Part shown: piece by piece, positions 9,399 to 63,679 of the stretch | How the letters are laid out: each line of letters opens with the position of its first letter | Numbering within the stretch: the stretch's first letter is position 1 | Virus record (IMG/VR): IMGVR_UViG_3300021430_000416 | Span: 18,435-82,434 of that record | Length of the DNA stretch: 64,000 nt | From: a virus | Lineage: Duplodnaviria > Heunggongvirae > Uroviricota > Caudoviricetes | Direction: 5' to 3' (one strand) | Made by a program: the position numbers and the translations under genes | The notes under the pieces: generated by a model | The model's database searches: none | What the model was told of the DNA's origin: nothing | Seen by the model: the letters and a program-made list of their open reading frames with translations, nothing else

Positions 9399-9444
9399 TT
9401 TTTAATTCACAAAAAAATTTCTTAAATTTTAAAAACAAAAGAAT

Positions 9445-49240: not shown

Positions 49241-49488
49241 AATTAAATTTATTTGATATTCAAAATATAACCAAAAATTTCCACATTACCAAATCACCGA
49301 TGCAAAATATGTAAAAGAACTGGCCAAACAATATTCAGGGTCACCTGTCCCGTCGATTCGATTCTTGCCAAACAAATTCCAGAGTCCCTGTCTTCAGGAT
49401 GGGTCATCGACCGTGTATACCTGATAGAAGAGATGTTCAGGAGACCGAATCCCCTGAACACCACATGTGTTATTACTGTACCGAAGAG

Positions 49489-50805: not shown

Positions 50806-50899
50806 ATACTTGTTCGATTTAAAGTTGTTTCGAAATTAGTGAATCCGCTGGAATATTCCAAATAATATTATGATATAATTGCCAAACAATATCCGGAGT

Positions 50900-51385
50900 C
50901 TACTTCCTGAAGGTCGACTTGAAGACCCTGATGTTTTCCTCTATCTCAGCATCCATGGCCTGAATCAACTTGGTCTTAGCTCGTTCCATGAATTCTTCGT
51001 TGCCAAACAATATTTCAAGGTTACCATCTGCCTCGGGATGAAACTCAATCTTCTTGACAATTACACGTACATCTTTAGACTTCTTATCCTTCCTATAGAA
51101 TGGAGTCCTTGCGTAGATGTATTCACGTACCTGAGATAACTTGATATCCTCTAGGTTCTCACGTATACGCATTTGCATTATGATTTCTTCAAGAGCTGCA
51201 AGTTGTTCGAAAGTACTTTTGTTTTTGGTAACCATTCCTTTATAAACGTTTACCATGTCAGTTAACTCCTTAGAGTTGACCACTTCACTACCTTGGTTAA
51301 GGAATTGGTCATAACCACTTACCTCACTCGGTGACCCAACGATGTCGATGAATACACCTTCAATTGTTTTATTTACTCGTCCCAT
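50900..51385 (-). CDS. hypothetical protein
   Basis: 161 aa ORF. Confidence 0.5.
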   Translation of the reverse strand: MGRVNKTIEGVFIDIVGSPSEVSGYDQFLNQGSEVVNSKELTDMVNVYKGMVTKNKSTFEQLAALEEIIMQMRIRENLEDIKLSQVREYIYARTPFYRKDKKSKDVRVIVKKIEFHPEADGNLEILFGNEEFMERAKTKLIQAMDAEIEENIRVFKSTFRK

Positions 51386-51386
51386 T

Positions 51387-51647
51387 TTAAAATTGATTCA
51401 AAAAATTCTTTATGCCAAACAAAATTGAGGGCTTGGCTTCCTCCTGAGTCTTCTTCTCTCTCTCGAATTCCTGTTTGTACAATGCTGCGTCCTCTGCTTT
51501 AATTCTCTCCTCGATGGTTTTAGCGTGAAATTTACCCGACACTACAACATTGAATTCTTTTTTCAATGAGTCTACCCACTCGTGATATGAAAGTTTCACA
51601 TCAGGATACACAGTGGTTCTTGGTTTAGGTTCTTGAGTCTGTATCAT
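51387..51647 (-). CDS. hypothetical protein
   Basis: 86 aa ORF, translationally coupled to the upstream gene. A GCCAAACAA box lies inside its 3' end. Confidence 0.45.
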   Translation of the reverse strand: MIQTQEPKPRTTVYPDVKLSYHEWVDSLKKEFNVVVSGKFHAKTIEERIKAEDAALYKQEFEREKKTQEEAKPSILFGIKNFLNQF

Positions 51648-51652
51648 ATGTC

Positions 51653-52258
51653 TTATTTTTCAGATAAACTTGTTTCGTACATTTGTTTGATTTCGTTATA
51701 GTCTTCCTCATCAACAAAGTTAAACTTCTCAATGAAATCATCAAGTGATATATCATCATCAATTGCGTATTGAATATCACTTTCGACCTCATACCAAAAC
51801 GCCTCGTTGTCCAAATGATATTTCCCCTCAAGGAAACTATAATCCTCCTCGACCAAATTTTCATTCTCTATTGTGGTTCTACCACAGAAATCACAACCAG
51901 GTTCCTCATATTGAAGTTCCACATTCACACCATACTTCTCGTGTAACCTCACACCGAAACCGATTGGTGGCGACCACGCTGTTTGGGGACTCATAGTGAT
52001 GGTGTTCTCACTGAACTCGAATTGACATTCATTGTATGACACATCCCACTTCGTTCCAAACCATCCGATATTGGCGTTATACCATCCACCTTTGTTATAT
52101 TCTTCTTCACCAATTTCAGGTTCACGACCGATTAGGGTTTCAAAGACATTTGCGTTATCTCTTTCTTCCTGTGGGATACCTTCCAACACACGAGTTAGTA
52201 ACCCGATGGTTTTAGGGTCACCAGTTATTGTTATATAATTTGAACACCAGTTTGGCAT
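51653..52258 (-). CDS. hypothetical protein (MPNWCSNYITI N-terminus, DUF1281/Api92-like?)
   Basis: 201 aa ORF. The N-terminal MPNWCxN motif recurs in a plasmid/phage protein family. Confidence 0.55.
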   Translation of the reverse strand: MPNWCSNYITITGDPKTIGLLTRVLEGIPQEERDNANVFETLIGREPEIGEEEYNKGGWYNANIGWFGTKWDVSYNECQFEFSENTITMSPQTAWSPPIGFGVRLHEKYGVNVELQYEEPGCDFCGRTTIENENLVEEDYSFLEGKYHLDNEAFWYEVESDIQYAIDDDISLDDFIEKFNFVDEEDYNEIKQMYETSLSEK

Positions 52259-52280
52259 AATCTTGTTATTTAATTTATTT

Positions 52281-52359
52281 GTAGTCGGGATAGGACTCGA
52301 ACCTATATTAAGATGCCCTTATGGACTTACACTTTTCCTATTCCATTAGAAGACCCGAC
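52281..52359 (-). tRNA. tRNA-like gene embedded between the promoter and the start codon of the downstream gene; anticodon arm not canonical by eye
   Basis: On the minus strand: GGTCGGG acceptor, U8, D-arm TTCT/AGGA with the AATGGAAT loop, T-arm ATAGG-TTCGAGT-CCTAT, acceptor 3' CCCGACT, discriminator A, no CCA. It lies immediately after a TATCTTTG -7 box. Confidence 0.45.
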
Positions 52360-52421
52360 CATTTGTGATACAAAGATAAAACAGGGATACCATTTTACCA
52401 AACAATACCCCTGTTTTTTTA

Positions 52422-52967
52422 TTACCAAGAGGATTGGTAGTAGAAGTCACCACCTTTTTCTTCCAACAGTGGTTCGAGTTGGTTAATGGTATTGTCCAAA
52501 TCTTTTATATACCATTGGTCATACTCTGTTCCACCAAAGAAAAAACCTGGTTGTGTCGGGAGTAGTTCTTCCGCAAGTGATGTGTCCTCAAATACTTCCA
52601 CATCGTCATACATCTTCTCACCATTCTGCCAACCAACTTCCATCCGAACCTTCTTCTTCGGAGAATTTTCCAAACTCTCCTTAACTTTCTTACAGGTGTC
52701 CACCAACTCTCGAAGTTGTTCCCTGTCCACATAATACTCTCGACAGTTGTCTTCACCACCCTGAACATTCTCAACAAACCATTGGTGAATGTGGTTTGCT
52801 TTACGCCAATACGCCACACTTTCTTCGATTGAGGAAATACGTTCCTTCTTAATGTGGGGAACTTCTTGACCGTTCTTCTTCACGGTTATTTCGTGAAGTT
52901 CTTCGGGTGACATATGTTCCCAATTCTTAACATATGTCTTTTTGTGTAGATACATATCTAATCCCAT
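52422..52967 (-). CDS. hypothetical protein of the MGLDMYL N-terminal family
   Basis: Start moved to the internal MGLDMYLHKK. The annotated 5' extension runs through the promoter/repeat region. Confidence 0.5.
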   Translation of the reverse strand: MGLDMYLHKKTYVKNWEHMSPEELHEITVKKNGQEVPHIKKERISSIEESVAYWRKANHIHQWFVENVQGGEDNCREYYVDREQLRELVDTCKKVKESLENSPKKKVRMEVGWQNGEKMYDDVEVFEDTSLAEELLPTQPGFFFGGTEYDQWYIKDLDNTINQLEPLLEEKGGDFYYQSSW

Positions 52968-53055
52968 AATAGTATTTTGTTTTTTTGTTGATACAAAGAT
53001 ATAACTGTTTTTTCTTTTTACAAAATTTATTTTGCCAAACAAATTGTGGGTCTTC

Positions 53056-53394
53056 TTACCCCTGTAGGATTTTGAAGTAGTCAACTCCTTTTGCAATTAG
53101 GTCTTCTGCACGTTTCAATCGTTTTGCATCATTCCAAATATTATATGAAGACCTTTCAGGTTCAACACCCAAGTCCAACATTGAAAAAAGATGTTCCCAT
53201 TTACCACCAACGTAAAGTTCACCCGTAAATCTTTCGACTGCATTGTAACTTTCGTAGGTCATTTTTAATTTAACACCTCGAACAACATCAGATTGTTGAA
53301 CGATGCACACATCGTGTGATTTTTCTTTCTTGTGGTGTTCACTTCTGTAGATTTGTTTTACCTTTACCATATCTTGATTGATTTGTTGATACAA
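53056..53394 (-). CDS. hypothetical protein
   Basis: 112 aa. Canonical -33/-7 promoter plus box upstream. Confidence 0.5.
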   Translation of the reverse strand: MYQQINQDMVKVKQIYRSEHHKKEKSHDVCIVQQSDVVRGVKLKMTYESYNAVERFTGELYVGGKWEHLFSMLDLGVEPERSSYNIWNDAKRLKRAEDLIAKGVDYFKILQG

Positions 53395-53477
53395 AGATAT
53401 AACCTTTATTTCTTTTTACCAAATTTATTTTACCAAACAAATTCCACAGTTCGTCACCTCCGTCGGGTTCTGAGTAA

Positions 53478-53512
53478 AAAAGAAAACCCCCACCATTTCT
53501 GATGAGGGTTTA
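53478..53512 (-). terminator. rho-independent terminator (conserved AAACCCTCA..CAGAAATGgtGGGGGTTTT family)
   Basis: Hairpin plus T-run on the minus strand after gene 53534..54043. Similar hairpins recur at 58838, 60226 and 62551. Confidence 0.5.
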
Positions 53513-53533
53513 ACCAATTAAACAATATATGAA

Positions 53534-54043
53534 CTAATCAAAAACAATACGTCCTTGTTTTTCTGTAACATCGTTGTCAACAACAACAATCTTACCAATG
53601 TCACCACTATCTTCACCTTGCCATGTAACCTCACCATTGAGTATTACATCCCACTTTGAGAAGAAGTGTTTGATGAGGTATTCCAACCATTCTGTATAAG
53701 AATAGAATTTCTCACCACCATCCCACTCCAATTCAGTTCCTTCCTTATTGATAGTCCATTGACACCATAAACCTGGTTGTCCTTGTGGGGGTTGGTTGTA
53801 ATCTATGATAGTTATATCACTAAATGATTCACGTCCACCAACAAAGTACCCACCATCCACACCATATGTTTCCTCTTTAGGTAAAAAAGGGTTTCCATTC
53901 TCACCATTTTCAAATTCCATAAGTTTTGAAACATCTCGTTTCATTCTACGAGTTTCATTGAACTCCCTAATAAAGTTTCCTTCTTGCGTTGTAAGTGGTC
54001 GGTTAAACTTAAACGAACCACTAAAGTCTGTCGTATATCCCAT
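53534..54043 (-). CDS. hypothetical protein
   Basis: 169 aa ORF. Confidence 0.5.
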   Translation of the reverse strand: MGYTTDFSGSFKFNRPLTTQEGNFIREFNETRRMKRDVSKLMEFENGENGNPFLPKEETYGVDGGYFVGGRESFSDITIIDYNQPPQGQPGLWCQWTINKEGTELEWDGGEKFYSYTEWLEYLIKHFFSKWDVILNGEVTWQGEDSGDIGKIVVVDNDVTEKQGRIVFD

Positions 54044-54151
54044 ATTCTTATTGATTAATTGTACTACAAAGATAAAACATTTATTTAATTATACAAAATT
54101 TTTATTGCCAAACAAAATCCCCCCGTCGGTTCTCCTTCAGGGGGATTAGTT

Positions 54152-54754
54152 TTAATTTTCTTTCAAGTCGAAAACAATCTCGGTATAGTCCATCATACCG
54201 TGTAATACTTTCGGACTATCTTTCTCCACAGAGATAACATCACGAGCCCATGACCCAACAATACCTTTTTCATCACCTCTGAAATCTCCTCCACCTCTAC
54301 CGTTACCCTCACAAGTTAATAATGGTAACGGGTGAATCTTTGTACCTTCCCATCCCACAATCTCGGGGATATTGTTTTTATCCACGAACTGTTTTTTGGT
54401 GTGGTTCACCACAAACTGATACTCTTCTGTATCTGTTACCTTTGGATTAACTTTGTTTTCGTCATTACAAAGTGAATACAGATTTGCATCATACTCTTTA
54501 CCCTCATCAATAATTTTTAAACCCGGTTCTTCATCCGCATAATCACCAGCCCACACTACACGACTTTTGTAATGTCCACCTGTACGTGATAAAAGTTTCT
54601 CGAATGCCGAAACGAAGTTGTTCCCTTGATAGGAATGTTCCATTAATTTAAGACCGTTGTCGTATTCGTGTGAATATACCCATGCCTTAACTGTTTCGTG
54701 TTGTCCTTCTTCTGGTTTACTACCTAGAATGATTGGTTTGAAATACTGTCCCAT
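54152..54754 (-). CDS. hypothetical protein
   Basis: 200 aa ORF. Confidence 0.55.
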   Translation of the reverse strand: MGQYFKPIILGSKPEEGQHETVKAWVYSHEYDNGLKLMEHSYQGNNFVSAFEKLLSRTGGHYKSRVVWAGDYADEEPGLKIIDEGKEYDANLYSLCNDENKVNPKVTDTEEYQFVVNHTKKQFVDKNNIPEIVGWEGTKIHPLPLLTCEGNGRGGGDFRGDEKGIVGSWARDVISVEKDSPKVLHGMMDYTEIVFDLKEN

Positions 54755-54825
54755 AATATTGTTTGATTAAAATGTTACACAAAAATAAAACAGTTCAGGA
54801 TATAATCCAAATACTTTTTTATTTA

Positions 54826-55030
54826 TTTTGCCAAACAAAAGTGGGATACCAGACTCACATCCAGATTCCAGCTAGATTCACAGCGCGGTCCTGCTCCTGA
54901 TATTGTTTGGCGGAAACACTACCATTGATAATCAACAACTTAAAGAATGCCAAACAAATTCCGGAGCTACAGCTGAGCTGCGTGCAACCAGCAAGCAAAC
55001 TATATAGCAATAAAAAACCCCCTAATCAAG
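54826..55030. repeat. intergenic repeat element (family copy A), ~200 nt, containing inverted GCCAAACAA boxes
   Basis: Shares GTGGGATACC..TCACATCCAGATTC..CCAGC..TTGTTTGGCGG..GCCAAACAAATTCC..CAGCAAGCAAACTA blocks with 58633..58862 and 63466..63640. Confidence 0.55.
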
Positions 55031-55792
55031 GGGGTCAATTACAAACCTACTATTTTTATCGGGTCGTTTTCGGGTCGTCTTATACTTCAACCCTACAATT
55101 ATACCGCCCTTATCTTTGTACCTCATATCGTAAAGGTCACCATCGATAACTTCTCTACCCCAAAATGATTCGGGTAAATGTTTTTTAAATACCACTGCGA
55201 CTCTAACTCCACTATTCAACATATTAAGACAATCGGTAAAGTTCTCACCACTAAAAGAAAAGGTAAGGTCATAGTTGGTATACTTGTTAATAAGTTCCAC
55301 CCTCTTTGGTACTTTCGAATAATCATAAAACATTACAGTCGGAAACAATTGTAAGATGTTTTTTTTCTCACCGTTCACATCCATATAAAATGATTCGGGA
55401 GAGATGTCAGATGTATTGTTTAATCGAACACTGAAAGTGTATCCCAATTTCTCAGCTTTCTTTTTTGCTGCGGTTATTTCAGATACCATCCATTTCATAA
55501 AATACTCACGGTGTTCAAAAAACAATTTTGTTTTTTTGATTCTACCTTTGGTAATCATGTCATCCTTCATGTTCATTCGATTCATACCTGATTCGTTTAA
55601 ACACAATGCGGTACACTCTTGTGTTCTCATTGGGCAAACCTCATAACCACTCAACTTGGCGGGTGCAAGGTAAAGACTGTAGGTCAACTCATCATATTTG
55701 AGTGACTTAACGTGTTTGGTTGTCATTGATACCGAACCCAAATAATTGATGCCGGTTTCAATCTTGGCTTGTGTTCTACTTTTAAATTCCAT
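55022..55792 (-). CDS. hypothetical protein
   Basis: 256 aa. TATCTTTG -7 box 22 nt upstream of the ATG. Confidence 0.55.
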   Translation of the reverse strand: MEFKSRTQAKIETGINYLGSVSMTTKHVKSLKYDELTYSLYLAPAKLSGYEVCPMRTQECTALCLNESGMNRMNMKDDMITKGRIKKTKLFFEHREYFMKWMVSEITAAKKKAEKLGYTFSVRLNNTSDISPESFYMDVNGEKKNILQLFPTVMFYDYSKVPKRVELINKYTNYDLTFSFSGENFTDCLNMLNSGVRVAVVFKKHLPESFWGREVIDGDLYDMRYKDKGGIIVGLKYKTTRKRPDKNSRFVIDPLD

Positions 55793-56018
55793 ATGTATGT
55801 TGGTTTAACAGGTACAAAGATAATTCTATTTTTGGTATAATCCAAATACTTTTTTATTTTTTTTTTCTGAAGGAAGGAGATGACCTGAGATGGAAAATAT
55901 TGTTTGGCGTAATACGTGCCAAACAAAATCCGGAGTCTGAGCTATCCCCGGAATCTTCAGACATAAAAAAAGGGGAAGTAGAAACTCCCCCTTTGTCTAA
56001 GTTAAACACTATTAGAAA

Positions 56019-56765
56019 TTAGAAACGAAGATTAAGTTTTTCGTCATTTCGTCTACGATAGTTGTAGATTTCCTCAATCATTTCGGTGTATAATTCTACC
56101 GAACCACAAAGGTGAATCATACCCGGACGAAGTTGAACTTTGTGTAGGAACTCCTCGAATTTAAATTCGGGTTTCTTCGACATAATCTTAATCAACGCTC
56201 TAACGAAGATTGATTTATTGTAACCTTTCTCGAAGTAAGGTTTAAGTTGTTGAATGTTCTTAGCCCACTCCTTACCTTTCTCAATGTTTTTTACTTGGAA
56301 GTTTCCACTTTCAAATACATCACGATGAACCGGATTTGAATTGTTCTGTAAAAACATCAATGCCTCGGTTACACGGAAGTCGGGGAACTCATTGATGAAG
56401 TTATCTAACTTCATGTAGTGTGGGTTGTTTTCTTTTACGTAACCATGAATGTGGTCAGCTAAAGACCAATTCTTTTGGTTTTGGTTTAGTCCACGAATTG
56501 CATCAAAACCAGCTTTACGTTCAATGGTGTAAGTAATAGGTACTCCTGCATTGATAGCCGCTTTTACTCGGTGTTGTCCGTCAATGATTTCACCTTTCTC
56601 ATTGATAACAACATAAGAACCCGGAATCCAACCAGTGTTTTTCATTTTGTCGGTCAACTTGGTGATGTGGGTTTTGTTAAGAACACGATTGTCTTCACGG
56701 AATTTAAACATTCCGTAGTTTTTGGTTTGGAACACTTGGTTCACTTTTTTTGAGTTCTGAATCAT
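56019..56765 (-). CDS. ParB/DUF262-like nuclease-domain protein (start at the internal MIQNSKK)
   Basis: GEIIDGQHRVKAAINAG is the DGQ(Q/H)R ParB/Srx-superfamily motif. The N-terminal extension of the track ORF overlaps the promoter. Confidence 0.5.
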   Translation of the reverse strand: MIQNSKKVNQVFQTKNYGMFKFREDNRVLNKTHITKLTDKMKNTGWIPGSYVVINEKGEIIDGQHRVKAAINAGVPITYTIERKAGFDAIRGLNQNQKNWSLADHIHGYVKENNPHYMKLDNFINEFPDFRVTEALMFLQNNSNPVHRDVFESGNFQVKNIEKGKEWAKNIQQLKPYFEKGYNKSIFVRALIKIMSKKPEFKFEEFLHKVQLRPGMIHLCGSVELYTEMIEEIYNYRRRNDEKLNLRF

Positions 56766-57061
56766 ACGAAATTGATTTTTTATTTGTTGTACAAAGATAT
56801 AATTGTTTTTTCTTTTTTCCAAATACTATTTTATTTTTTTTCAAAAATAACTTTGACTTTGTTTTGAGAACCAAATGTAATAAGAATATCAATAAAATCC
56901 AAGAAATATTTTATCTTTTTTGCCAAACAAAATCCCACCTGAAATGACCCCGGCGTAAACAGAAACGGGGTTTTTAAACAAAAAAATGGGGGTAAAACTA
57001 CCCCCAATGTTAAACCAAACACAAATTACAACTATGAAATGTAACCGTATTTAAAAGTTAA

Positions 57062-57250
57062 TCAAACCAATTTATATTGTAAACCCCTTTTGATGTTTTT
57101 TTCCGAAATCTTTGTGTAGAGGTTTTTAAACTTCGGGTGTTCAACAAAGTAATCATTACCACTCTTGAAGTAATTTAACTCTGTATTACTTGGGAACACA
57201 ATGTCAAACTTCTTTGACTTTACTTTTCTTTTTAAAACGATGCAGTCCAT
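57062..57250 (-). CDS. hypothetical small protein
   Basis: 62 aa ORF. Confidence 0.35.
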   Translation of the reverse strand: MDCIVLKRKVKSKKFDIVFPSNTELNYFKSGNDYFVEHPKFKNLYTKISEKNIKRGLQYKLV

Positions 57251-57253
57251 ATC

Positions 57254-57679
57254 TTATCGTATTACGTTACCATTAATAAATTCACCATCACTTTTGAAAA
57301 GTTCTTCTGTCGGTTCACCACCATTATCCTCAACACTCATAACCTCTTTGGTGTCCATAACTTCATCCCACGGTAATTCTGAAATCTCATTCCCTTTTGA
57401 AAACTCTATCGCTTTAAGCTTTGCATCTTCTTCATCGACTGCATCAATCTCAAAGTTAGTTCTCATCCAAGTAGTTACCTTTTGGTCAAGGTAGAAGCTG
57501 AAGGTTGTGGTTGGAAGGTCATACAACATTCTCTCCACGATTAAGTTCCAAGTGCTCTCGGGTTCATCGTTCTCATAACTGATGTAGTTCTCCAAAACCC
57601 AGTTAATCTCTTTCTCGGTTAATTGTTTGTTGATAGAGTTACCTACACTGATAACATCTTCTCTTGAAATTCTTGACAT
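57254..57679 (-). CDS. hypothetical acidic protein (start at MSRISRED)
   Basis: The track ORF's N-terminal 18 aa are read through the promoter region. Confidence 0.5.
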   Translation of the reverse strand: MSRISREDVISVGNSINKQLTEKEINWVLENYISYENDEPESTWNLIVERMLYDLPTTTFSFYLDQKVTTWMRTNFEIDAVDEEDAKLKAIEFSKGNEISELPWDEVMDTKEVMSVEDNGGEPTEELFKSDGEFINGNVIR

Positions 57680-57748
57680 AATATTATTGATTAGTTGTGA
57701 TACAAAAGTATAATGTTTTTTTCTTTTTACCAAATGTTTGTTGCCAAA

Positions 57749-58066
57749 CTAATTCCAGTCTTCGTCCCTGCAACTGTCCATCGTTTTGTCCATCCCAACG
57801 TCATACGCTTCCAACTCGGTGTAGATGTCATGTAACAAATCATCGTTAAGGTCTTCATACTCCACAGTGAATGTATCGACCTCTTGTTCATGTACATAAG
57901 TTACCACCTCAACATAATCTCGGTAAAACCTTTCAATGGTTGAATAATGGTCTTTACTTATCTGGTTGTAAATCGGTGATGATTCACACTCCATATCTCG
58001 TGTGCTGATTGAACCCCACTTTTCGATAATGGTTTTAATTTCTCTGATGGTTGCAGTTCTTTTCAT
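57749..58066 (-). CDS. hypothetical protein
   Basis: 105 aa ORF. Confidence 0.45.
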   Translation of the reverse strand: MKRTATIREIKTIIEKWGSISTRDMECESSPIYNQISKDHYSTIERFYRDYVEVVTYVHEQEVDTFTVEYEDLNDDLLHDIYTELEAYDVGMDKTMDSCRDEDWN

Positions 58067-58070
58067 ATTG

Positions 58071-58346
58071 TTATAATGTTATAAATTCACAAAAATCTTC
58101 GAGGTCAAGTAAATCAATACGACCGTGTTTTGCTGAGGAATAATAACCCTGTTGTTTGTAGTTATCCTTCCACTTGTTGAAAGCCTCCATAGCCTTCTTT
58201 CTACTTGTATAGGTTACAACATCCCTTTCAATGGTGAAACCATCGGGTGATAATACCTGATACATTTTTCTTTTAGGAGTAAATGATGCAATTGCATTGT
58301 CGCAATTGTGTTTACCGCCATCCATTCCATCTAAATAAGTTGCCAT
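58071..58346 (-). CDS. hypothetical protein
   Basis: 91 aa ORF. Confidence 0.45.
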   Translation of the reverse strand: MATYLDGMDGGKHNCDNAIASFTPKRKMYQVLSPDGFTIERDVVTYTSRKKAMEAFNKWKDNYKQQGYYSSAKHGRIDLLDLEDFCEFITL

Positions 58347-58347
58347 A

Positions 58348-58572
58348 TTATTTTTTAATTTTATTCCAAAAATGATTAACTACTTCGGGTATATACTTTT
58401 TATAGCCTGGTTGATTATCCATACACCACTTCTTTAATTCCTCTTTTGTGGTAAAAGGTTTCTGCCACGAATTACCACTCATTATCTGATTAAACAAGGG
58501 TTCAAGGTCATTAATAAAACTACCTACTGTCCAACCTTCCCAAATGTGTTTGTTTAAATTGATTGATGCCAT
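58348..58572 (-). CDS. hypothetical protein (start at MASINLNK)
   Basis: The 5' extension (...RFIFVQQIK...) is promoter read-through. Confidence 0.4.
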   Translation of the reverse strand: MASINLNKHIWEGWTVGSFINDLEPLFNQIMSGNSWQKPFTTKEELKKWCMDNQPGYKKYIPEVVNHFWNKIKK

Positions 58573-58632
58573 AATTAATTTGATTTGTTGAACAAAGATA
58601 AATCTATTTTCGATATAATCCAAATACTTTTT

Positions 58633-58862
58633 TATTTATTTTGCCAAACAAAAGTGGGATACCGGGGTCACATCCAGATTCACCAGCAAAATCCCCAGCA
58701 GCAACCAGCAGGCAAGCCAGGTGATTTTGTTTGGCAGAAATCGTAGTATTGAAAATCAATGAGTTAAGTCCGCCAAACAAATTCTACAGTTCCAGCTGTT
58801 GCTGCTGGATAACAGCAAACTAGCAAGCAAGAAAAAACCCCCGACTTTCATCGAGGGTTTCC
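58633..58862. repeat. intergenic repeat element (family copy B)
   Basis: See 54826..55030. Contains inverted TTTGTTTGGCAG / CCGCCAAACAA boxes and ends in a terminator hairpin. Confidence 0.55.
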
Positions 58863-58911
58863 GACACCTGTCGCCAATTAATTGGTATTAGCAGGACTAC
58901 CAATCAATGTC

Positions 58912-59760
58912 TTACACCAACTCTACAAGTTGTTTGAAGATACTTCTCTCACGATTTCCGTAAGTACCGAACATTTTGTTCTCGGTATTATCTTCTTTAC
59001 TCAATGAGTGGGTTGTATATTTTGTTACACCACTGAACAACCCCCAAAGGTTATCACCTTTCTCTTTCAACTCACCGTTAAGGTCTACATAGAAACGAGT
59101 TAAACGATTTCGGGTAACTGATGATACACCATCTTCATCGTTCAAGTCAATTTCTCTTGCTATGTTGAACAATAATTTGGTAGCCCAATCTTCGGTTTGT
59201 TTTGAGAAACGAGTTTCAGCAAGTTTCTTAATGTCTTGGAACATTTCTTGTTCTTCTTGTAGTACACCTTCCAATCCACGACAAATGTCGTCAATCTTCA
59301 TTTGCATGTTCTTTGTGTGACGAACCTTTGTGTTCAAGTTGCGGAACGCTGCGAAGAACGTATTCATACAACTGATAGTAATGTTACTCGGTCCGAATGC
59401 CAAACTAGTTGAACCATCGAATGAGTTCACACCGGTAATGTAACCTTCGATACGGTCATCACCCAACTTCAAATCATTTGATTTAAGTTGTAGGAACACT
59501 TTCTCACCCTCACCAAAGTAACCACCTTTGTGAATAGGTAAACCAACTTGTTGAGATACCTTATCAAGTAACTCAATCATCTGATGGTTTTGGAATGGTT
59601 GATAACCCTCACCATGTACTGATAACACCGAATTGTTATCATCACGAATGATTGCTTTTGTTTTCGGAACAATGATACCACTTTCGGTAGTAACTGTTTC
59701 TTCACGGACTGTCCAATTCAAACCTGTTTGATTAAGGACTTGGTTAATTCTTTCTGACAT
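58912..59760 (-). CDS. DUF932-family protein (phage/plasmid-associated)
   Basis: LNWTVREE...AIIRDDNNSVLSVHGEGYQPFQNHQ...KVRHTKNM match the DUF932 N-terminal and central RHT blocks. Confidence 0.55.
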   Translation of the reverse strand: MSERINQVLNQTGLNWTVREETVTTESGIIVPKTKAIIRDDNNSVLSVHGEGYQPFQNHQMIELLDKVSQQVGLPIHKGGYFGEGEKVFLQLKSNDLKLGDDRIEGYITGVNSFDGSTSLAFGPSNITISCMNTFFAAFRNLNTKVRHTKNMQMKIDDICRGLEGVLQEEQEMFQDIKKLAETRFSKQTEDWATKLLFNIAREIDLNDEDGVSSVTRNRLTRFYVDLNGELKEKGDNLWGLFSGVTKYTTHSLSKEDNTENKMFGTYGNRERSIFKQLVELV

Positions 59761-59837
59761 TTGATTATGATTTAATTGTTGAACAAAGATAAATCTATTT
59801 TGGGTATAAACCTAATTTTTTTTTACTTTTTTTTGAA

Positions 59838-60035
59838 TTAACTTGCCAAAGGAATTTCCCTCCACTCTAGATTCCCACAGTAATCTTCGATGTACTCTTT
59901 TGCATCGGATAACCCGATAACCGAATAATCATGGTCTCCATTCTCTACCACGATTTTTTTAACAAAATCAATGAAATCATTTTCATTACCAGTGAAGATT
60001 GTTTTATCTTCTACGTTGTTGTAAACTGTTACCAT
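59838..60035 (-). CDS. hypothetical small protein (start at MVTVYNN)
   Basis: The 5' extension is promoter read-through. Confidence 0.4.
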   Translation of the reverse strand: MVTVYNNVEDKTIFTGNENDFIDFVKKIVVENGDHDYSVIGLSDAKEYIEDYCGNLEWREIPLAS

Positions 60036-60326
60036 AATTGTATTATTTGATTTAACGAGGACAAAGATAAATCTATTTTCGGTATAAACCAAATATTTTT
60101 TTATTTTTTTTTTTTAGGTGAGTCTAAATCCTGTCGTCGAGCTTGGGATATTGTTTGGCGTAATACAGTGCCAAACAAAATTCAGGCACCCGGGTCATCA
60201 GACTCACCTTTAGGTAATACAAATAAAAAACCCCCACATTTCTGTGAGGGTTTAACCAATTAACATTATGAACCACAACCAAATCTATTCAATCATATGA
60301 ACAAATTCAGATATTTTAAATACTTT

Positions 60327-60662
60327 TTAGTAGTTTTTTTCGTAGTTATGTTCACGAAAACCTCTTTTGTGGAATGAGTTCCTCTTTGGTCGTTCCGTGT
60401 AGTGATTGAATGATGTTTCAATCATTGTGTCGACTGACGGTGTTTCCCAATCCATGTTGCAAGAACCGTTCATCATCAACCACTGGATTTCAAATATCTC
60501 TTTCACACTTTCTTCCACGTTGACGTAAGTTCCATCCATGTACTCAATCTTGGTAACAACTTGGTTGTTCCGTTTATCCAATACGGGATAGATGTTCTTC
60601 ACATTTTGAAGATTAACCAATGTGGGAGTTCCCTTTCCTTGATACGTAAGTCTAATTAACAT
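60327..60662 (-). CDS. hypothetical protein
   Basis: 111 aa ORF. Confidence 0.45.
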   Translation of the reverse strand: MLIRLTYQGKGTPTLVNLQNVKNIYPVLDKRNNQVVTKIEYMDGTYVNVEESVKEIFEIQWLMMNGSCNMDWETPSVDTMIETSFNHYTERPKRNSFHKRGFREHNYEKNY

Positions 60663-60755
60663 TTTAATTTAGATTTAAAATTTGAACAAATATACAACTA
60701 AAAATTTATGATATTCTAATTTTGTTGCCAAACAATTTTTACTGTCCGGTCTTCT

Positions 60756-60995
60756 TCAGACATTCCCTGAGAAGACGAGATTGTTTTTTTCGGGTAATAC
60801 ATTATCGGGATGGTCGATAATCTCGTACTTGTCTTCACCGATTATAAGTCCGATGGTTCTACCGTTATCCCAATTCACATTGATTACACCTCCACCAACG
60901 TGTCTAATAGTTCCCATCTGTCCTTTCTCGATGGGTTGAGGGTCATTTGACATTGTTTCTGTCATACGAATTCTTTTACCTACGATGTTGTTCAT
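60756..60995 (-). CDS. hypothetical protein
   Basis: 79 aa ORF. Confidence 0.45.
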   Translation of the reverse strand: MNNIVGKRIRMTETMSNDPQPIEKGQMGTIRHVGGGVINVNWDNGRTIGLIIGEDKYEIIDHPDNVLPEKNNLVFSGNV

Positions 60996-61120
60996 ATCTA
61001 TTGTTCTTTTTTGTTATACAAATATACAACTTATTTCCGTTTACACAAGAAAAATCTTTAGGAAAGATGCCAAACAATTTTTGGAGGACCGCCGGTCTTC
61101 AGACTCAAGATACGGAAATA

Positions 61121-61150
61121 AAAAAACCCCGATGTTACTCGGGGTCTTTC
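61121..61150 (-). terminator. rho-independent terminator
   Basis: CCCCGAgtaacaTCGGGG hairpin plus T-run on the minus strand after gene 61152..61484. Confidence 0.5.
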
Positions 61151-61151
61151 T

Positions 61152-61484
61152 TTATTCGTTGATGTCTGTGTAGACTTCATCTTTAGTCTTAAACAGACTA
61201 TTCGGTCTACGTCTGTCACCTTTTTTGAGTTCATAGTAACCCTCACCATGTACCCCATCAGGGAAGTAACGATAGGTGGTGTCACCATACAACACATTCG
61301 GTGTGTCTTTCACGAAATCCTCCATAGAAATTTTGGTGTCACCCATTGATACTCGGTAACTACCTTTCTCAATTTTTTCCATGATGAAATCTTTCTTTCC
61401 GTTCTTTTCCTCGAAATGACGGATTGCTCTGTACGCCGCACTTGACGACTTGTACATCTTTGGGAATTTAACTTCTGTACTCAT
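61152..61484 (-). CDS. hypothetical protein
   Basis: 110 aa ORF. Confidence 0.5.
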   Translation of the reverse strand: MSTEVKFPKMYKSSSAAYRAIRHFEEKNGKKDFIMEKIEKGSYRVSMGDTKISMEDFVKDTPNVLYGDTTYRYFPDGVHGEGYYELKKGDRRRPNSLFKTKDEVYTDINE

Positions 61485-61578
61485 ACGATATAATTTAATT
61501 GTTGAACAAAGGTAATGCAGGTTTCCGATATAACCAAATAATTTTTTTATTTTTTTAGAATTATTATGCCAATCAAAT

Positions 61579-62361
61579 TTAGGATACCTTCTGTCCCGTG
61601 GTCATCTTCTGTGATAATCTCTTGATACCTCCTTTGGTGTAAGGTTCGATGAAGATAAACTTAAACAACTTTCTACCTTTACCATAAGGTTGTAAACGGA
61701 AGTGTCCTCTTACTGAAAATTCATCTAAACGAATAATAGTGGTGTTCCAATTCGTATTAACTAAAATAAACTTACTACGAGTGTCATTCTTAACCTTACC
61801 TTGTTTGTTAGTTCCAAACGATGCTCCGCCAATCAAAATGTCAAGGGTCACGTCGGTGAGCTCCAAGTAAGTCACAACAACTAAAAACTTCGAGTAAAAT
61901 TCCTCAATCATTCTCTCCAAGTTCATATCTTGTCCATCATCCGATTTCTTATTGTCGGTTGTAACTTTACCCGTAACCAAATTAACCTCGAAGAAATAAA
62001 GATAAATCATATCATCATTGGGTTTCGTGTAGTGAAACGATACCAATAACATCTCATCAGTCTTTCTGTATTTGATACAAGTCATCTCATCCAACTGAAT
62101 AACATCTTTTCGGTTGGGTAAGGTTCTCAATACATCTATTCTTAATTGTTTCGGTACGATATAGTTCTCCAAGTTCTGAATAGACTTCTTAGAAAATACG
62201 AGTTTCCTAACATCAGTTTCTTTTAATAAACTAATTTTATTTAAGTACACATCTTCTCTCGGTGAATCGAACACACAACATTTTGTCAAAAAATCTACGT
62301 GATGTTTGATGTAGTGTTCTTTCTCTACTACGTTGATAAGACTATCTTCTTTAATTCTCAT
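61579..62361 (-). CDS. hypothetical protein
   Basis: 260 aa ORF. Confidence 0.55.
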   Translation of the reverse strand: MRIKEDSLINVVEKEHYIKHHVDFLTKCCVFDSPREDVYLNKISLLKETDVRKLVFSKKSIQNLENYIVPKQLRIDVLRTLPNRKDVIQLDEMTCIKYRKTDEMLLVSFHYTKPNDDMIYLYFFEVNLVTGKVTTDNKKSDDGQDMNLERMIEEFYSKFLVVVTYLELTDVTLDILIGGASFGTNKQGKVKNDTRSKFILVNTNWNTTIIRLDEFSVRGHFRLQPYGKGRKLFKFIFIEPYTKGGIKRLSQKMTTGQKVS

Positions 62362-62604
62362 AACTTAATTGATTTAACGAGTACAAAAATAAATCTATTT
62401 TCCGTATAATCCAAATTTTTTTTTACTTTTTTTCCTGAAGAATCCGGGGACAGCGCAGACTCCACATATTGTTTGGCGTACTACAACCGATATGTAATAC
62501 GATGCCAAACAAAATTCAGACGCCCGGGTCATCAGACTCACCTTCGGGTAATACAAAAAAAAATCCCCGACTTTCATCGAGGATTTCCTAACCAAAAAAC
62601 AAAC

Positions 62605-63006
62605 CTATTCAGAATCTTGTAACTCACCAGTAAGGTACATGTCGTAAGTTTTAACTTCATTAACCAAAAGTTCGGTAACCTTTTCAATAAGTTTTTTGTC
62701 GATACGTTTAACTCCGTATTCCTCCCTAACTTTTTTCTTCGATACGAAAATGAAACCAACTTGTCCACTATCACAACGACAACTAAAACCTGTCGTGTTC
62801 ATAGTAATTCCCGAGTGGTCGTAAAGGTAAAGTGGTAAGATTACACAAGCATCTTCATTCTTGATAATTGCACTTTCCATTTCATCCCAACCACTATAAT
62901 CTCTGTGGTCGTATTCGTGTTTATCCCCCAAATCATAACGATTGTGGAAACACACCATTGTTCCTAAATTGTCCCAACTACGTGGGTTGTCGAAGTCTTG
63001 ATACAT
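62605..63006 (-). CDS. hypothetical protein (start at MYQDFDNPRSW)
   Basis: The 5' extension is promoter read-through. Contains PLYLYDHSG and CRCDSGQVGF. Confidence 0.5.
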   Translation of the reverse strand: MYQDFDNPRSWDNLGTMVCFHNRYDLGDKHEYDHRDYSGWDEMESAIIKNEDACVILPLYLYDHSGITMNTTGFSCRCDSGQVGFIFVSKKKVREEYGVKRIDKKLIEKVTELLVNEVKTYDMYLTGELQDSE

Positions 63007-63082
63007 AACTTTATTTTTAATTGGTTTATACAAATATAATACTAATAACCGAATACACCAAATCTTTTTTGCCAAACAATTT

Positions 63083-63421
63083 CTACTGTCCGGTCATCTC
63101 CTCATCCTTCTTGACCATCTCATTCATAATTGAGGGTACTAAGTCTTTCAATAGTGAAATCTTTTTCTTCTCCAATTCAATTAGTTCACATAGGTTATCC
63201 ACAACCTTTTTTACTTTCTCATATTCATCGGAAGTTAAAAGAAATACCATACGAGGTTTATTATTATACTCATACCCATTCAATGGTTTAGTAAACTCAT
63301 GTAACCCAAAGTTCTTTCCCTCTTCTCTGTTGAAGTAATAAGGGGTAAGACCCATAGATTTGAAACGTACCAAATCCATACTCTTGATGTTGCCATCCAT
63401 TAAACGTCTTGACTTTTCCAT
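63083..63421 (-). CDS. hypothetical protein
   Basis: 112 aa ORF. The true start may be an internal Met, because the -7 box lies only about 5 nt upstream. Confidence 0.45.
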   Translation of the reverse strand: MEKSRRLMDGNIKSMDLVRFKSMGLTPYYFNREEGKNFGLHEFTKPLNGYEYNNKPRMVFLLTSDEYEKVKKVVDNLCELIELEKKKISLLKDLVPSIMNEMVKKDEEMTGQ

Positions 63422-63465
63422 GATGCAAATATAAACCTATTTTTGTTATAGACAAATTCTTTTTT

Positions 63466-63640
63466 GCCAAACAAATGTGGGATACTGCGGTCCACCGGTT
63501 TCCACCAGCAAAATCACCAGAATTTCCCAGCAGGTCCCAGCCGAGAATTTGTTTGGCGGACTAATACGTTAGCCAAACAAAAAGTTGGATTCCAGCTACA
63601 GCCGGCGCAATCTTCAAGCAAAAAAAAAAGGATAACATTT
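63466..63640. repeat. intergenic repeat element (family copy C)
   Basis: See 54826..55030. Carries the inverted pair TTTGTTTGGCGGactaatacgttaGCCAAACAAA. Confidence 0.55.
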
Positions 63641-63679
63641 CTGTTACCCTCTCTTCATCACAACCATGTGTTAAACCAA

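What the first reader, a model, noticed from the sequence alone, without database searches (positions are those of the whole stretch)
54826..63640. Family of ~150-200 nt GC-richer intergenic repeat cassettes (terminator, CCAGC-rich core, inverted box pair) between minus-strand genes
Three long copies share, in the same order:
- TTGCCAAACAAA(A/T)GTGGGATAC(C/T)
- TCACATCCAGATTC
- CCAGCAAAATC(C/A)CCAG
- an inverted box pair
- TTCCAGCT
- CAGCAA(G)CAAACTA(G)CAAGCAAG / AAAAAACCCCC terminator-like hairpin

The long copies are at 54826..55030, 58633..58862 and 63466..63640.

Shorter related cassettes share ...GGCGTAATAC(A)GTGCCAAACAAAAT(T/C)C..CCCGGGTCATCAGACTCACCTT..GGTAATACAAA..AAAAACCCCC hairpin... 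These are at 55860..55995, 60100..60270 and 62400..62600. The 48.78-48.95 and 49.31-49.49 kb regions carry further fragments: CTCCTGTCCCGTCGATTC is repeated, as is CCCCGGGTCATCTGTCATAC.

These are not simple promoter duplications. They are long, GC-richer than coding sequence, and located between the upstream terminator and the promoter-proximal box.

Possibilities are miniature mobile elements (MITE-like), small RNA genes (each has its own hairpin/terminator), or enhancer-like arrays of regulator binding sites.
Basis: seen in the sequence. Interest (0 to 1): 0.6.

Follow-up and report, generated by a model that had tools for sequence, protein, structure and literature searches.

The report
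Phased regulator-box arrays upstream of phage promoters
The repeated GC-rich stretches between the small genes of this uncultured Bacteroidota phage are most likely docking sites on double-stranded DNA for a phage regulator, placed between each gene's terminator and the next promoter, and are not mobile elements or small RNA genes.

Summary
The minus-strand block of small genes (47.6-64 kb) has conserved intergenic cassettes at the stated coordinates. They are GC-richer (45-51%) than the genes (39%). Read on the minus strand, each cassette runs: G/C hairpin terminator with T-run, GC-rich arm, 9-mer box TTGTTTGGC (usually a head-to-head pair, often around GTAWTAC), second GC-rich arm, A-run, then a Bacteroidota host-type promoter (-33 TTTG, -7 TAnnTTTG).

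The box occurs 31 times against 0.55 expected; 29 copies lie in this block. Related uncultured phages, mostly from freshwater, keep the same architecture at the same gene junctions, but each lineage uses its own box (TTGATTGGC, TTGTTTCGC, TTAGTCTGG, TTACTGGGG, TTCTGTGGC, TTTGTCGAC and others).

Across 151 box pairs the box-to-box distance is 10.5-bp periodic. Arm lengths and the distance to the promoter fall in narrow classes. Neither strand folds better. Arms of one cassette are no more complementary to each other than to arms of other cassettes.

This points to phased protein-binding sites on duplex DNA, read by a co-evolving phage factor that controls these promoters. It does not fit MITEs or sRNAs. 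The closest known kind is the PeSL terminator-promoter cassette of T4-type phages, here extended by an operator/UAS array. The reader protein is not identified, and the direction of regulation is inferred only.

The parts
54755..55040 (-). Long cassette upstream of gene 54152-54754. Terminator hairpin 55016-55036. Distal sense box 54949-54957. Inverted box 54903-54911; outer-edge distance of the pair is 55 bp, with a TTGATTATCAA centre. CTGG-rich arm. Promoter-proximal sense box 54830-54838. A-run. -7 box 54780-54787. ATG at 54754.
55793..56018 (-). Short cassette upstream of the GP88-family gene 55022-55792. Terminator 55969-55994. Box pair 55918-55926 (sense) and 55900-55908 (inverted) around GTATTAC, 27 bp apart. 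A-run. -7 box 55815-55822.
58573..58911 (-). Long cassette downstream of DUF932 gene 58912-59760 and upstream of gene 58348-58572. Terminator 58833-58862. Boxes 58772-58780 (sense) and 58727-58735 (inverted), 54 bp apart. CTGG repeats about 10-12 nt apart. Proximal box 58643-58651. -7 box 58593-58600.
60036..60326 (-). Short cassette. Terminator 60228-60253. Box pair 60170-60178 and 60151-60159 around GTATTAC, 28 bp apart. A-run. -7 box 60062-60069. ATG at 60035.
62362..62604 (-). Short cassette. Terminator 62558-62589. Box pair 62504-62512 and 62469-62477, 44 bp apart, with a spacer holding GTATTAC and GTAGTAC. -7 box 62384-62391. Chimeric: its left arm matches the left arm of the 60.1 kb cassette, and its right arm matches the inverted left arm of the 55.9 kb cassette.
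   Evidence: (D17)
63422..63660 (-). Long cassette. Terminator 63623-63656. Boxes 63572-63580 and 63549-63557, 32 bp apart. CTGG-rich arm. Proximal box 63466-63474. -7 box 63426-63433.
48789..48884 (-). Three sense boxes in direct repeat (48789-48797, 48828-48836, 48876-48884; spacing 39 and 48 nt), downstream of the small basic-protein gene.
49323..49375 (-). Two sense boxes in direct repeat, 44 nt apart, upstream of gene 48968-49240. The homologous gene in L012 and L007 has the same two-box, 44-nt layout, built from their own box TTACTGGGG.
50881..63079 (-). Single boxes at other promoters: 50881-50889, 51414-51422, 53034-53042, 53432-53440 (variant ACCAAACAA), 54107-54115, 56922-56930, 57743-57751 (variant), 60727-60735, 61069-61077, 61568-61576 (variant) and 63071-63079. 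Where a -7 box was scored, the 5' end of the box lies 41, 51 or 62 nt before it. The exception is 56922-56930, which lies 131 nt upstream.
56019..56765 (-). ParB-like protein gene (248 aa, DGQHR motif) inside the cluster. It is a candidate box-binding factor, with no direct evidence.
48968..49240 (-). 90-aa basic protein with a predicted three-strand-plus-helix core resembling AP2 and the Tn916-Int N-terminal DNA-binding domains. The gene is flanked by the direct box arrays. It is a candidate DNA-binding factor, but too conserved between lineages to set box specificity.

Best explanation
What it is. Each cassette is the upstream regulatory region of a host-RNA-polymerase promoter, set in a terminator-promoter module. 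These modules separate the small genes of a variable gene block in a large T4-related phage of Bacteroidota.

What is shown. The 9-13 bp box (TTGTTTGGC in this phage) behaves as a recognition site on double-stranded DNA. Boxes occur as head-to-head pairs whose separation follows the helical repeat. The pairs lie at fixed distances from the terminator T-run on one side and from the A-run and promoter on the other. In this lineage a further box sits 41, 51 or 62 nt before the -7 element. The box sequence changes from one phage lineage to the next while the geometry stays the same.

What is inferred. A sequence-specific protein encoded by the phage binds the boxes as an oligomer on one face of the helix. 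A second, conserved factor may read GTAWTAC. The complex modulates transcription from the adjacent promoter. The upstream position, about -50 to -100 and never over the core promoter, favours activation or architectural boosting, as at class I activator sites. A timed shut-off or a roadblock/insulator role is not excluded.

A by-product. The shared boxes, promoters and terminators also act as short homologies along which the cassettes and their genes recombine.
For: Box enrichment and location.
- The box occurs 31 times against 0.55 expected, and 29 copies lie in the minus-strand block.
- 23 of those 29 are in gene-sense orientation.

Host-type module.
- Canonical minus-strand terminators are followed by an A-rich tract, -33 TTTG and -7 TAnnTTTG, about 20-30 nt before each ATG.

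Lineage-specific boxes in one architecture.
- Boxes seen are TTGATTGGC, TAGTTTGGC, TTGTTTCGC, TTAGTCTGG, TTACTGGGG, TTGCGGGGC, TTCTGTGGC, TTAGTGTGGC, TTTGTCGAC, TTATCCGGG and CATTGCCGT.
- Cassettes sit at the same gene junctions in different lineages.

Helical phasing.
- The outer-edge distance of 151 unique head-to-head pairs peaks at 22, 33, 43, 54, 63, 75 and 85 bp.
- After clustering to 107 cassettes the periodogram power is 18.4 at 10.5 bp, reached by 0 of 5000 jittered controls.
- The signal holds separately in the window's lineage (at most 1 of 2000) and in all other lineages pooled (0 of 2000).

Fixed geometry.
- From the T-run to the left box is 36-40 or 43-47 nt.
- From the right box to the A-run is 23-26 or 32-38 nt.
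- The promoter-side box edge lies 76-79 or 85-92 nt before the -7 box in at least four lineages.
- In the TTGTTTGGC-type lineage the proximal box lies 41/42, 50-53 or 61/62 nt before the -7 box.

Composite site. GTAWTAC sits 0-3 nt inside the box and rarely outside it.

Against an RNA or hairpin reading.
- Neither strand folds better (75 versus 76).
- Arms of the same cassette are no more complementary than arms of different cassettes (3.21 versus 3.12).
- The arms are unstructured.
- There is no Rfam family hit.

Candidate DNA-binding proteins in the block.
- A ParB-like protein.
- A small protein with an AP2/Int-N-like predicted fold, flanked by box arrays.
Against: - No binding protein is identified. 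The ParB-like protein does not map one-to-one onto box types and was not found in the sampled loci of two lineages. The small basic protein is nearly identical in lineages that use different boxes.
- Two of the six pairs in this window (27 and 28 bp) are half a turn off the ladder.
- In the smaller lineages taken singly the periodicity is weak or not significant.
- Cassettes in different loci are related by descent. Part of the discrete spacing could therefore be inherited rather than selected, although clustering at 70% identity did not remove the signal.
- The promoter-proximal box classes occur in one lineage group only.
- In L014, L003 and L001 a box followed by GTATTTAT lies only 13-22 nt before an ATG with no recognisable -33/-7 promoter. 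A pure upstream-site model does not explain this.
- There are no expression data. Transcription start sites, timing and the direction of regulation are all inferred.
Confidence: 0.55

Rival explanations
1. Site-specific recombination or transposition sites. The inverted boxes would be recombinase-binding arms around a conserved 7-bp core (GTAWTAC). They would let promoter-gene-terminator cassettes be excised, inverted or exchanged, in an integron- or transposon-like way.
For: - Lineage-specific inverted repeats are typical of recombinase or transposase ends.
- The 33-bp class reads 13-7-13, like lox, FRT or att core sites.
- The 62.4 kb cassette is a chimera of the left arm of the 60.1 kb cassette and the inverted left arm of the 55.9 kb cassette, as an inversion with its crossover between the boxes would give.
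- In L014 and L003 a small opposite-strand gene lies exactly between the inverted boxes.
- A protein whose predicted fold resembles the Tn916-integrase arm-binding domain is encoded in the block.
Against: - Core sites need a fixed spacer. Here the spacing runs from 22 to 88 bp in helical steps.
- No recombinase, integrase or transposase domain was found among the window ORFs scanned.
- Single boxes lie at discrete distances from promoters.
- The GTT of integron core sites is not kept across lineages.
- Arms of one cassette do not pair better than arms of different cassettes, unlike attC.
- Homologous recombination over short shared motifs, as at PeSLs, explains the chimeras equally well.
Confidence: 0.13
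2. PeSL-type terminator-promoter cassettes only. The conserved box would be part of an extended promoter or UP region kept similar by recombination, with no dedicated binding protein.
For: - The G/C stem-loop, AT-rich tract and host-type promoter repeat between small genes of unknown function, as described for PeSLs (PMC2839356, PMC4122927).
- Similarity between copies runs into the promoters and terminators (D14, D17).
- One + strand ORF has a weak Pfam match to the T4-type portal protein.
Against: - This does not explain inverted copies of the box 80-130 bp upstream.
- It does not explain the 10.5-bp ladder.
- It does not explain a wholesale change of box between lineages while -33 and -7 stay the same.
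- It does not explain the GC-rich arms of fixed length.
Confidence: 0.12
3. Promoters for a phage-specified sigma factor or RNA polymerase. The box would be a lineage-specific promoter element, as with the T7 and T3 promoters, giving a second transcription class in tandem with the host-type promoter.
For: - Lineage-specific motifs co-varying with a phage factor are classic for phage polymerases.
- Most boxes point in the sense direction.
- A box plus GTATTTAT lies 13-22 nt before an ATG, without a -33/-7 promoter, in three loci.
- A related aquatic jumbo-phage group is reported to encode a sigma factor (PMC12619734).
Against: - Head-to-head pairs 4-67 bp apart would be convergent promoters.
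- The sequence downstream of the box differs between contexts (an A-run, or GTAWTAC), so no fixed second element or start site exists.
- No polymerase or sigma domain was found in the window.
Confidence: 0.08
4. Miniature mobile elements (MITE or REPIN-like) that have spread through the intergenic regions.
For: - The sequences are repeated, intergenic and partly palindromic.
- Individual cassettes fold as about 100-nt hairpins (z -2 to -5).
- The orthologous site downstream of DUF932 differs in content between relatives.
Against: - The only sequence shared by all copies is the 9-13 nt box, while the arms differ.
- There are no terminal inverted repeats at cassette ends and no apparent target duplication.
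- The position is conserved in lineages that use different boxes.
- Arms are not hairpins, and arms of one cassette are not specifically complementary.
- Helical phasing is not expected of MITEs.
- No transposase or RAYT domain was found among the ORFs scanned.
Confidence: 0.05
5. Small RNA genes or structured RNA elements, each with its own hairpin and terminator.
For: - Stable predicted folds on both strands for some cassettes.
- An adjacent hairpin that could terminate in both directions.
Against: - No Rfam family above threshold.
- No promoter directed into the cassettes.
- The cassettes lie downstream of strong terminators and upstream of promoters.
- No strand bias in stability over 151 cassettes.
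- Partner boxes in relatives differ systematically by non-wobble mismatches (TTGTTTGGC paired with GCCAATCAA or GCCAACCAA).
- Loop lengths follow a DNA helical repeat.
Confidence: 0.04

Closest known systems
PeSL (promoter-early stem-loop) cassettes of T4-type phages (Arbiol et al. 2010, PMC2839356; Comeau et al. 2014, PMC4122927)
   Same: - Repeated intergenic composite of a GGGG...CCCC stem-loop terminator, an AT-rich tract and a host-sigma-type early promoter.
- Concentrated in a block of small genes of unknown function, each with its own promoter and terminator.
- Similarity between copies invites recombination and mosaicism.
   Different: - Here 90-180 bp of GC-rich DNA lies between stem-loop and promoter, carrying lineage-specific boxes in helically phased pairs plus GTAWTAC. 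PeSLs as described have no such module.
- The promoter is of the Bacteroidota -33/-7 type.
- Recombination is only inferred from chimeric arms. No mini-circles or exchange events are shown.
Helix-face-dependent upstream activator sites (class I CRP sites at -61.5, -71.5, -82.5 and -92.5; Fis sites upstream of rrnB P1). From my own knowledge.
   Same: - Sites upstream of an A-rich, UP-like tract.
- Allowed positions differ by about one helical turn.
- Several sites per promoter.
   Different: - No activator is known here.
- The sites are asymmetric boxes in inverted pairs with variable spacing.
- The direction of regulation has not been tested.
Global operator regulons of mobile elements: KorB (ParB family) operators of IncP plasmids, and immunity-specific operators of lambdoid phages. 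From my own knowledge.
   Same: - One element-encoded protein with many sites at varied distances from many promoters.
- Site sequence co-varies with the element lineage.
- A ParB-like gene is present in the block.
   Different: - KorB operators are single 13-bp palindromes. Here the sites are asymmetric boxes paired over 22-88 bp.
- The ParB-like protein is not shown to bind, and it is not found in every sampled lineage.
P1 parS and lambda attP-type nucleoprotein sites. From my own knowledge.
   Same: - Two kinds of short motif (box and GTAWTAC).
- Inverted and direct arrangements.
- Phasing, with A-tract flanks, suggests a wrapped higher-order complex.
   Different: - Those sites occur once per genome. 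Here there are at least 17 promoter-linked copies in 16 kb.
- No recombinase or IHF-type site has been identified.

Membership tests
PeSL cassette | Intergenic stem-loop terminator (G-run/C-run), then an AT-rich tract, then a host-sigma-type early promoter | tested here: met
   Terminator scan gives 31 sites against 10.2 expected, with canonical GGGGG..CCCCC-T7 hairpins on the minus strand. An A-run, -33 TTTG and -7 TAnnTTTG lie 20-30 nt before the ATGs.
PeSL cassette | Repeated within a variable region of small genes of unknown function in a T4-type phage | tested here: inconclusive
   The block has about 28 small genes, most without annotation or carrying only DUF-type domains. T4 relatedness rests only on a weak Portal_T4 match (E 2e-5) and on resemblance to a described T4-related aquatic jumbo-phage group.
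PeSL cassette | Mediates recombination and modular exchange between copies | tested here: inconclusive
   Chimeric arms are seen (62.4 kb cassette = 60.1 kb left arm + inverted 55.9 kb left arm). Content differs at the orthologous junction. No close relative (>90% nt) was available to map exchange points.
MITE | Terminal inverted repeats at the element ends, with a target-site duplication | tested here: not met
   The inverted boxes are central, 4-67 bp apart. The cassette ends are a T-run and an A-run belonging to the terminator and the promoter. No direct duplication is apparent at the cassette ends by inspection; the repeat finder was run for direct repeats only and inverted repeats at the ends were not scanned for. 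The sequence flanking the boxes is itself part of the extended box.
MITE | Multiple near-identical copies at unrelated sites, with presence/absence between relatives | tested here: not met
   Copies share only the box and the promoter/terminator parts. Cassettes occupy the same gene junctions in lineages that use different boxes.
Small RNA / structured RNA | Match to a described family, or a structure supported on one strand | tested here: not met
   No Rfam match reaches the gathering score. The sense strand is more stable in 75 cassettes and the antisense strand in 76. Arm folding z averages -0.48.
Small RNA / structured RNA | Own promoter and a discrete transcript | not testable with these tools
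   No -33/-7 promoter faces into the cassettes by inspection. No expression data are available.
Integron attC | Imperfect palindrome whose two halves pair, with conserved RYYYAAC...GTTRRRY ends | tested here: not met
   GTTTGGC/GCCAAAC is one base off the consensus in this lineage. Other lineages use TTACTGGGG, TTAGTCTGG and the like, which have no GTT. Arms of one cassette are no more complementary than arms of different cassettes.
REP/REPIN with RAYT | Each unit is a short imperfect palindrome, doublets form hairpins, and a cognate HUH transposase is present | tested here: not met
   The 34 nt next to each box is not hairpin-forming. No Y1/HUH domain was found among the ORFs scanned. The rest of the roughly 300-kb genome has not been seen.
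ParB/KorB-type operator regulon | A ParB-family protein encoded by the element | tested here: met
   The protein at window 56019-56765 matches PHROG 12305 'ParB-like partition protein' at E 3e-32 over its full length. Homologs are present in most lineages.
ParB/KorB-type operator regulon | Palindromic 13-16 bp operator bound by that protein | tested here: not met
   The boxes are asymmetric and paired at variable distance. Binding cannot be tested here. Protein clusters do not follow box types.

The most novel reading that the evidence does not exclude
The box pairs around the conserved GTAWTAC core could be recognition sites of a phage-encoded recombination machine that excises, inverts and exchanges whole promoter-gene-terminator cassettes. 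That would be an integron-like shuffling system for early accessory genes in jumbo phages of Bacteroidota, with lineage-specific site recognition.
Probability: 0.1. Interest if true: 0.85.

Novelty: new variant of a known kind. Interest (0 to 1): 0.5.

Why it matters
If the reading is right, a family of uncultured aquatic phages of Bacteroidota, known only from metagenomes, controls a whole block of accessory genes through one phage-specified DNA-binding system. Its recognition sequence has been replaced many times while its geometry has stayed fixed.

This gives three things:
- A way to recognise this promoter class, and probably the early or accessory regulon, directly from sequence in uncultured phages.
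- A natural series of at least ten orthogonal box/reader pairs attached to a Bacteroidota promoter. Such a series would be useful for studying how regulator and site co-evolve, and as parts for Bacteroidota genetics.
- An extension of the PeSL concept beyond enterobacterial and Vibrio T4-type phages.

It does not by itself reveal a new mechanism of gene control.

Tried and rejected
- Near-identity DNA search of 54-64 kb against cultured phage records found nothing.
- An exact-pattern scan of IMG/VR for the 22-nt proximal block found nothing.
- DUF932 tblastn against cultured phages gave only hits below 30% identity, so no cultured relative is available.
- Rfam at a permissive E-value gave only three sub-threshold matches, two on terminator hairpins and one just beside the 55.97 kb terminator.
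- tRNA origin of the arms (GGGGATAGCTCAG resembles a tRNA 5' part): ARAGORN finds only tRNA-Ser at 33.6 kb. Dropped.
- Sigma-54 reading of TGGCAC-N-GC in two pairs: the spacing is not conserved between copies. Dropped on inspection.
- Coding reading: small minus-strand ORFs of 51-66 aa run through the cassettes. Dropped because indels between copies are not in threes and because the box is invariant at DNA level in both orientations.
- Long-hairpin reading: individual cassettes fold well. Across 151 cassettes, however, arms of one cassette are no more complementary than arms of different cassettes, and there is no strand bias. Rejected as a general feature.
- Terminator-like reading of arm plus box: the arms are not hairpins, and most lineage boxes are not U-rich.
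- The small basic protein as the box reader: rejected, because its core is almost unchanged between lineages that use different boxes.
- Pfam and NCBIfam on the block's proteins found no classical transcription-factor domain. Nor did a Pfam survey of 77 + strand ORFs.

Full report
**Setting**

The window is 35% G+C. Genes run on the + strand up to 47.6 kb and on the minus strand from 47.6 to 64 kb.

The + strand part encodes a Dda-like helicase, an RNA ligase, a nicotinamide phosphoribosyltransferase, NADAR, Thg1, DHFR and homing endonucleases. One ORF there has a weak match to the T4 portal protein.

The helicase is at best 39% identical to proteins of Bacteroides phages of about 170 kb. No cultured phage is close at DNA or protein level.

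Relatives exist only in metagenomes, mostly from freshwater, on contigs up to 311 kb. A recently described group of 200-307 kb aquatic phages with predicted Flavobacteriia hosts, T4-like structural genes and no RNA polymerase genes looks similar (PMC12619734). I did not test membership in that group.

The minus-strand block holds about 28 small genes. Most have no annotation or only DUF-type domains: GP88, DUF932, DUF4314, DUF4241, an Api92-like domain and a bacterial PH domain.

They are GC-richer: 45-51% inside, against 39% for the genes.

Read on the transcribed (minus) strand, every intergenic region has the same order:
- a G/C hairpin followed by a T-run, which is the canonical terminator (31 terminator-like sites against 10 expected);
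- a GC-rich stretch;
- one to three copies of TTGTTTGGC;
- an A-run;
- TTTG(G), and about 19 nt further TAnnTTTG, followed 20-30 nt later by the ATG.

TTTG at -33 and TAnnTTTG at -7 are the consensus of the primary sigma factor of Bacteroidota (my own knowledge). So these genes are read by the host polymerase, and the cassettes lie upstream of the promoters and downstream of terminators.

The 9-mer occurs 31 times against 0.55 expected. Of those, 29 are in this block, 27 are intergenic, and 23 are in the sense orientation.

**What is really conserved**

The arms differ between copies. The invariant part is the box with its A/T-rich 5' flank (A-W-T-TTGTTTGGC-A/G), preceded by about 25-30 nt of 50-70% G+C with no consensus.

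Six cassettes carry a head-to-head pair (TTGTTTGGC ... GCCAAACAA). The three long ones add a third box next to the promoter. Eleven other promoters have a single box. The 90-aa protein gene at 48968-49240 is flanked by direct arrays of two and three boxes.

**Relatives change the picture**

In loci retrieved through DUF932 and GP88, the same architecture recurs at the same gene junctions, but each lineage has its own over-represented box:
- TTGTTTGGC with TTGATTGGC or TAGTTTGGC in the nearest relatives;
- TTGTTTCGC;
- TTAGTCTGG;
- TTACTGGGG;
- TTGCGGGGC with TAGTGGGGC;
- TTCTGTGGC;
- TTAGTGTGGC;
- TTTGTCGAC;
- TTATCCGGG;
- CATTGCCGT.

For example, GP88 is flanked by cassettes on both sides in this window and in L012, with TTGTTTGGC here and TTACTGGGG there.

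The palindromic heptamer GTAWTAC is shared by nearly all lineages and enriched four- to eight-fold in most. It sits 0-3 nt inside the box and almost never outside it.

A motif that is uniform within a genome yet replaced between genomes, while -33 and -7 stay the same, points to a trans-acting reader encoded by the phage.

**DNA or RNA?**

I collected 151 unique head-to-head pairs from all loci.
- The sense strand folds better in 75 and the antisense strand in 76 (Wilcoxon p = 0.1).
- The two arms of one cassette are no more complementary to each other than to arms of other cassettes in the same genome (3.21 against 3.12).
- The 34 nt next to a box is not hairpin-forming (mean z -0.48).
- In several relatives the partner box differs systematically by non-wobble mismatches.
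- No Rfam family matches.

So the impressive hairpins predicted for single cassettes of this window (z -2 to -5) are not a general, selected feature.

In contrast, the distance between the outer edges of paired boxes is sharply periodic, with peaks at 22, 33, 43, 54, 63, 75 and 85 bp.
- After collapsing related cassettes to 107 clusters, the power is 18.4 at a period of 10.5 bp. None of 5000 jittered controls reaches it.
- The signal is present in the window's lineage alone (at most 1 of 2000) and in all other lineages pooled (0 of 2000). It is weak or absent in the small lineages taken one by one.

A 10.5-bp ladder is the signature of sites that must face the same side of duplex DNA. Of the six pairs in this window, four fit the ladder (55, 54, 44 and 32 bp) and two do not (27 and 28 bp).

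**Geometry relative to the neighbours**

- From the end of the terminator T-run to the left box is 36-40 or 43-47 nt.
- From the right box to the A-run is 23-26 or 32-38 nt.
- The promoter-side box edge lies 76-79 or 85-92 nt before the -7 box in at least four lineages with different boxes.
- In the TTGTTTGGC-type lineage only, a sense box lies 41/42, 50-53 or 61/62 nt before the -7 box. In this window the counts are 41 nt (five promoters), 51 nt (three promoters, plus the 50.88 kb promoter by hand count) and 62 nt (one).

Part of this discreteness may be inherited. Even so, arm lengths are kept while arm sequences are not.

**Interpretation**

Shown:
- a lineage-specific box on duplex DNA;
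- helical phasing of box pairs;
- fixed placement between terminator and host-type promoter.

Inferred:
- A phage-encoded protein binds the boxes as an oligomer, possibly with a conserved partner on GTAWTAC.
- It modulates the adjacent promoter.

The sites lie at about -50 to -100, upstream of an A-rich tract, and never over the core promoter. I therefore favour activation or architectural boosting, as at helix-face-dependent class I activator sites. A timed shut-off or an insulating roadblock behind the terminator cannot be excluded.

**Candidate readers**

Two candidate DNA-binding proteins are encoded in the block.
- A ParB-like protein (56019-56765; PHROG 12305, E 3e-32). It has homologs in most lineages that diverge unusually fast: 43% identity in L001, where DUF932 is 76% identical. 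Its clusters do not follow box types, and it was not found in the sampled loci of two lineages.
- A 90-aa basic protein (48968-49240). It has a confident three-strand-plus-helix core, with weak matches to AP2 and Tn916-Int N-terminal domains. In two lineages the gene is preceded by two boxes 44 nt apart. It is too conserved between lineages to determine box specificity.

**Comparison with known systems**

The terminator, A/T tract and host-promoter module, repeated between small genes of unknown function, is what Arbiol, Comeau and Krisch named PeSL in T4-type phages. The present cassettes meet that definition.

They add a 90-180 bp operator/UAS module that PeSLs as described lack.

Mosaic arms suggest that recombination between cassettes occurs here too, whether by short homology or otherwise. 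The 62.4 kb cassette combines the left arm of the 60.1 kb cassette (88% over 81 nt) with the inverted left arm of the 55.9 kb cassette.

MITE, REPIN, attC and sRNA memberships each fail at least one defining feature that I could test.

**Unexplained**

- In L014 and L003 a conserved 45-49 aa membrane peptide is encoded on the opposite strand, exactly between the inverted boxes. Its ATG lies 13-22 nt after a box plus GTATTTAT, with no -33/-7 promoter. L001 has the same layout in the sense direction.
- The long cassettes carry CTGG repeats about 10-12 nt apart, whose role is unknown.
- CAGGTGA and CCGG recur near boxes across lineages.

**Verdict**

This is a real and orderly regulatory feature, and it is a new variant of a known kind. 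Interest is moderate.

Noticed in passing
L014 about 9330-9520; L003 about 5530-5700 (between the inverted boxes downstream of DUF932): A conserved 45-49 aa membrane-type peptide (M.EGILYT...LHKE...RFLDDM*) is encoded on the opposite strand, exactly between the two inverted boxes. Its ATG lies 13-22 nt after the antisense box plus GTATTTAT, with no recognisable -33/-7 promoter. This window has only a 36-nt spacer at the orthologous site.
   Followed up: partly
[not shown]
   Followed up: yes
window 56019-56765 (-): A ParB-like protein (DGQHR motif, PHROG 12305) sits inside the block of small genes. Between some lineages it diverges much faster than the neighbouring DUF932 protein.
   Followed up: partly
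window 52285-52420 (-): The sequence upstream of the 52378 promoter ends in a T-arm/acceptor-like stretch (GGTTCGAGTCCTATCCCGACTAC). It looks like a tRNA remnant, but neither ARAGORN nor Rfam calls it. An 18-bp hairpin (52378-52417) encloses a variant box.
   Followed up: no
L004 8880-9120: At the junction downstream of DUF932 this lineage carries direct repeats of perfect palindromes (CCAGATCGATCTGG, CCAGATGAATTCTGG) in addition to its TTAGTCTGG boxes. This looks like a second kind of operator-like site.
   Followed up: no
window 60721-60755 and 63065-63099: The two regions are 91% identical, and the similarity runs from the box into the 3' coding ends of the upstream ORFs. Read in one frame, both ORFs end in ...TGQ*. 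The called ORF 60756-60995, however, stops earlier in another frame. This may be a frameshift or a shared cassette-borne C-terminus.
   Followed up: no
window 42425-43906 and 44433-46505 (+): Two large neighbouring paralogous ORFs (493 and 690 aa), both matching PHROG 20046 of unknown function.
   Followed up: no
window 1-47600 (+): Pfam survey hits include NADAR, Thg1 (tRNA-His guanylyltransferase), DHFR, R2K ATP-grasp domains, LAGLIDADG and GIY-YIG homing endonucleases, and a weak T4 portal match. A tRNA-Ser(CGA) lies at 33625-33716. The box is essentially absent from this part (two copies, at 32.5 and 43.5 kb).
   Followed up: partly
L005, L031, L035, L036 (about 100-150 nt downstream of the basic-protein gene) and L007-L013 (e.g. 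L012 14637-14680): Lineages that use other boxes still keep one or two copies of this window's box TTGTTTGGC at one conserved spot. There it is paired with their own box or with a second copy. This suggests more than one box specificity per genome.
   Followed up: no
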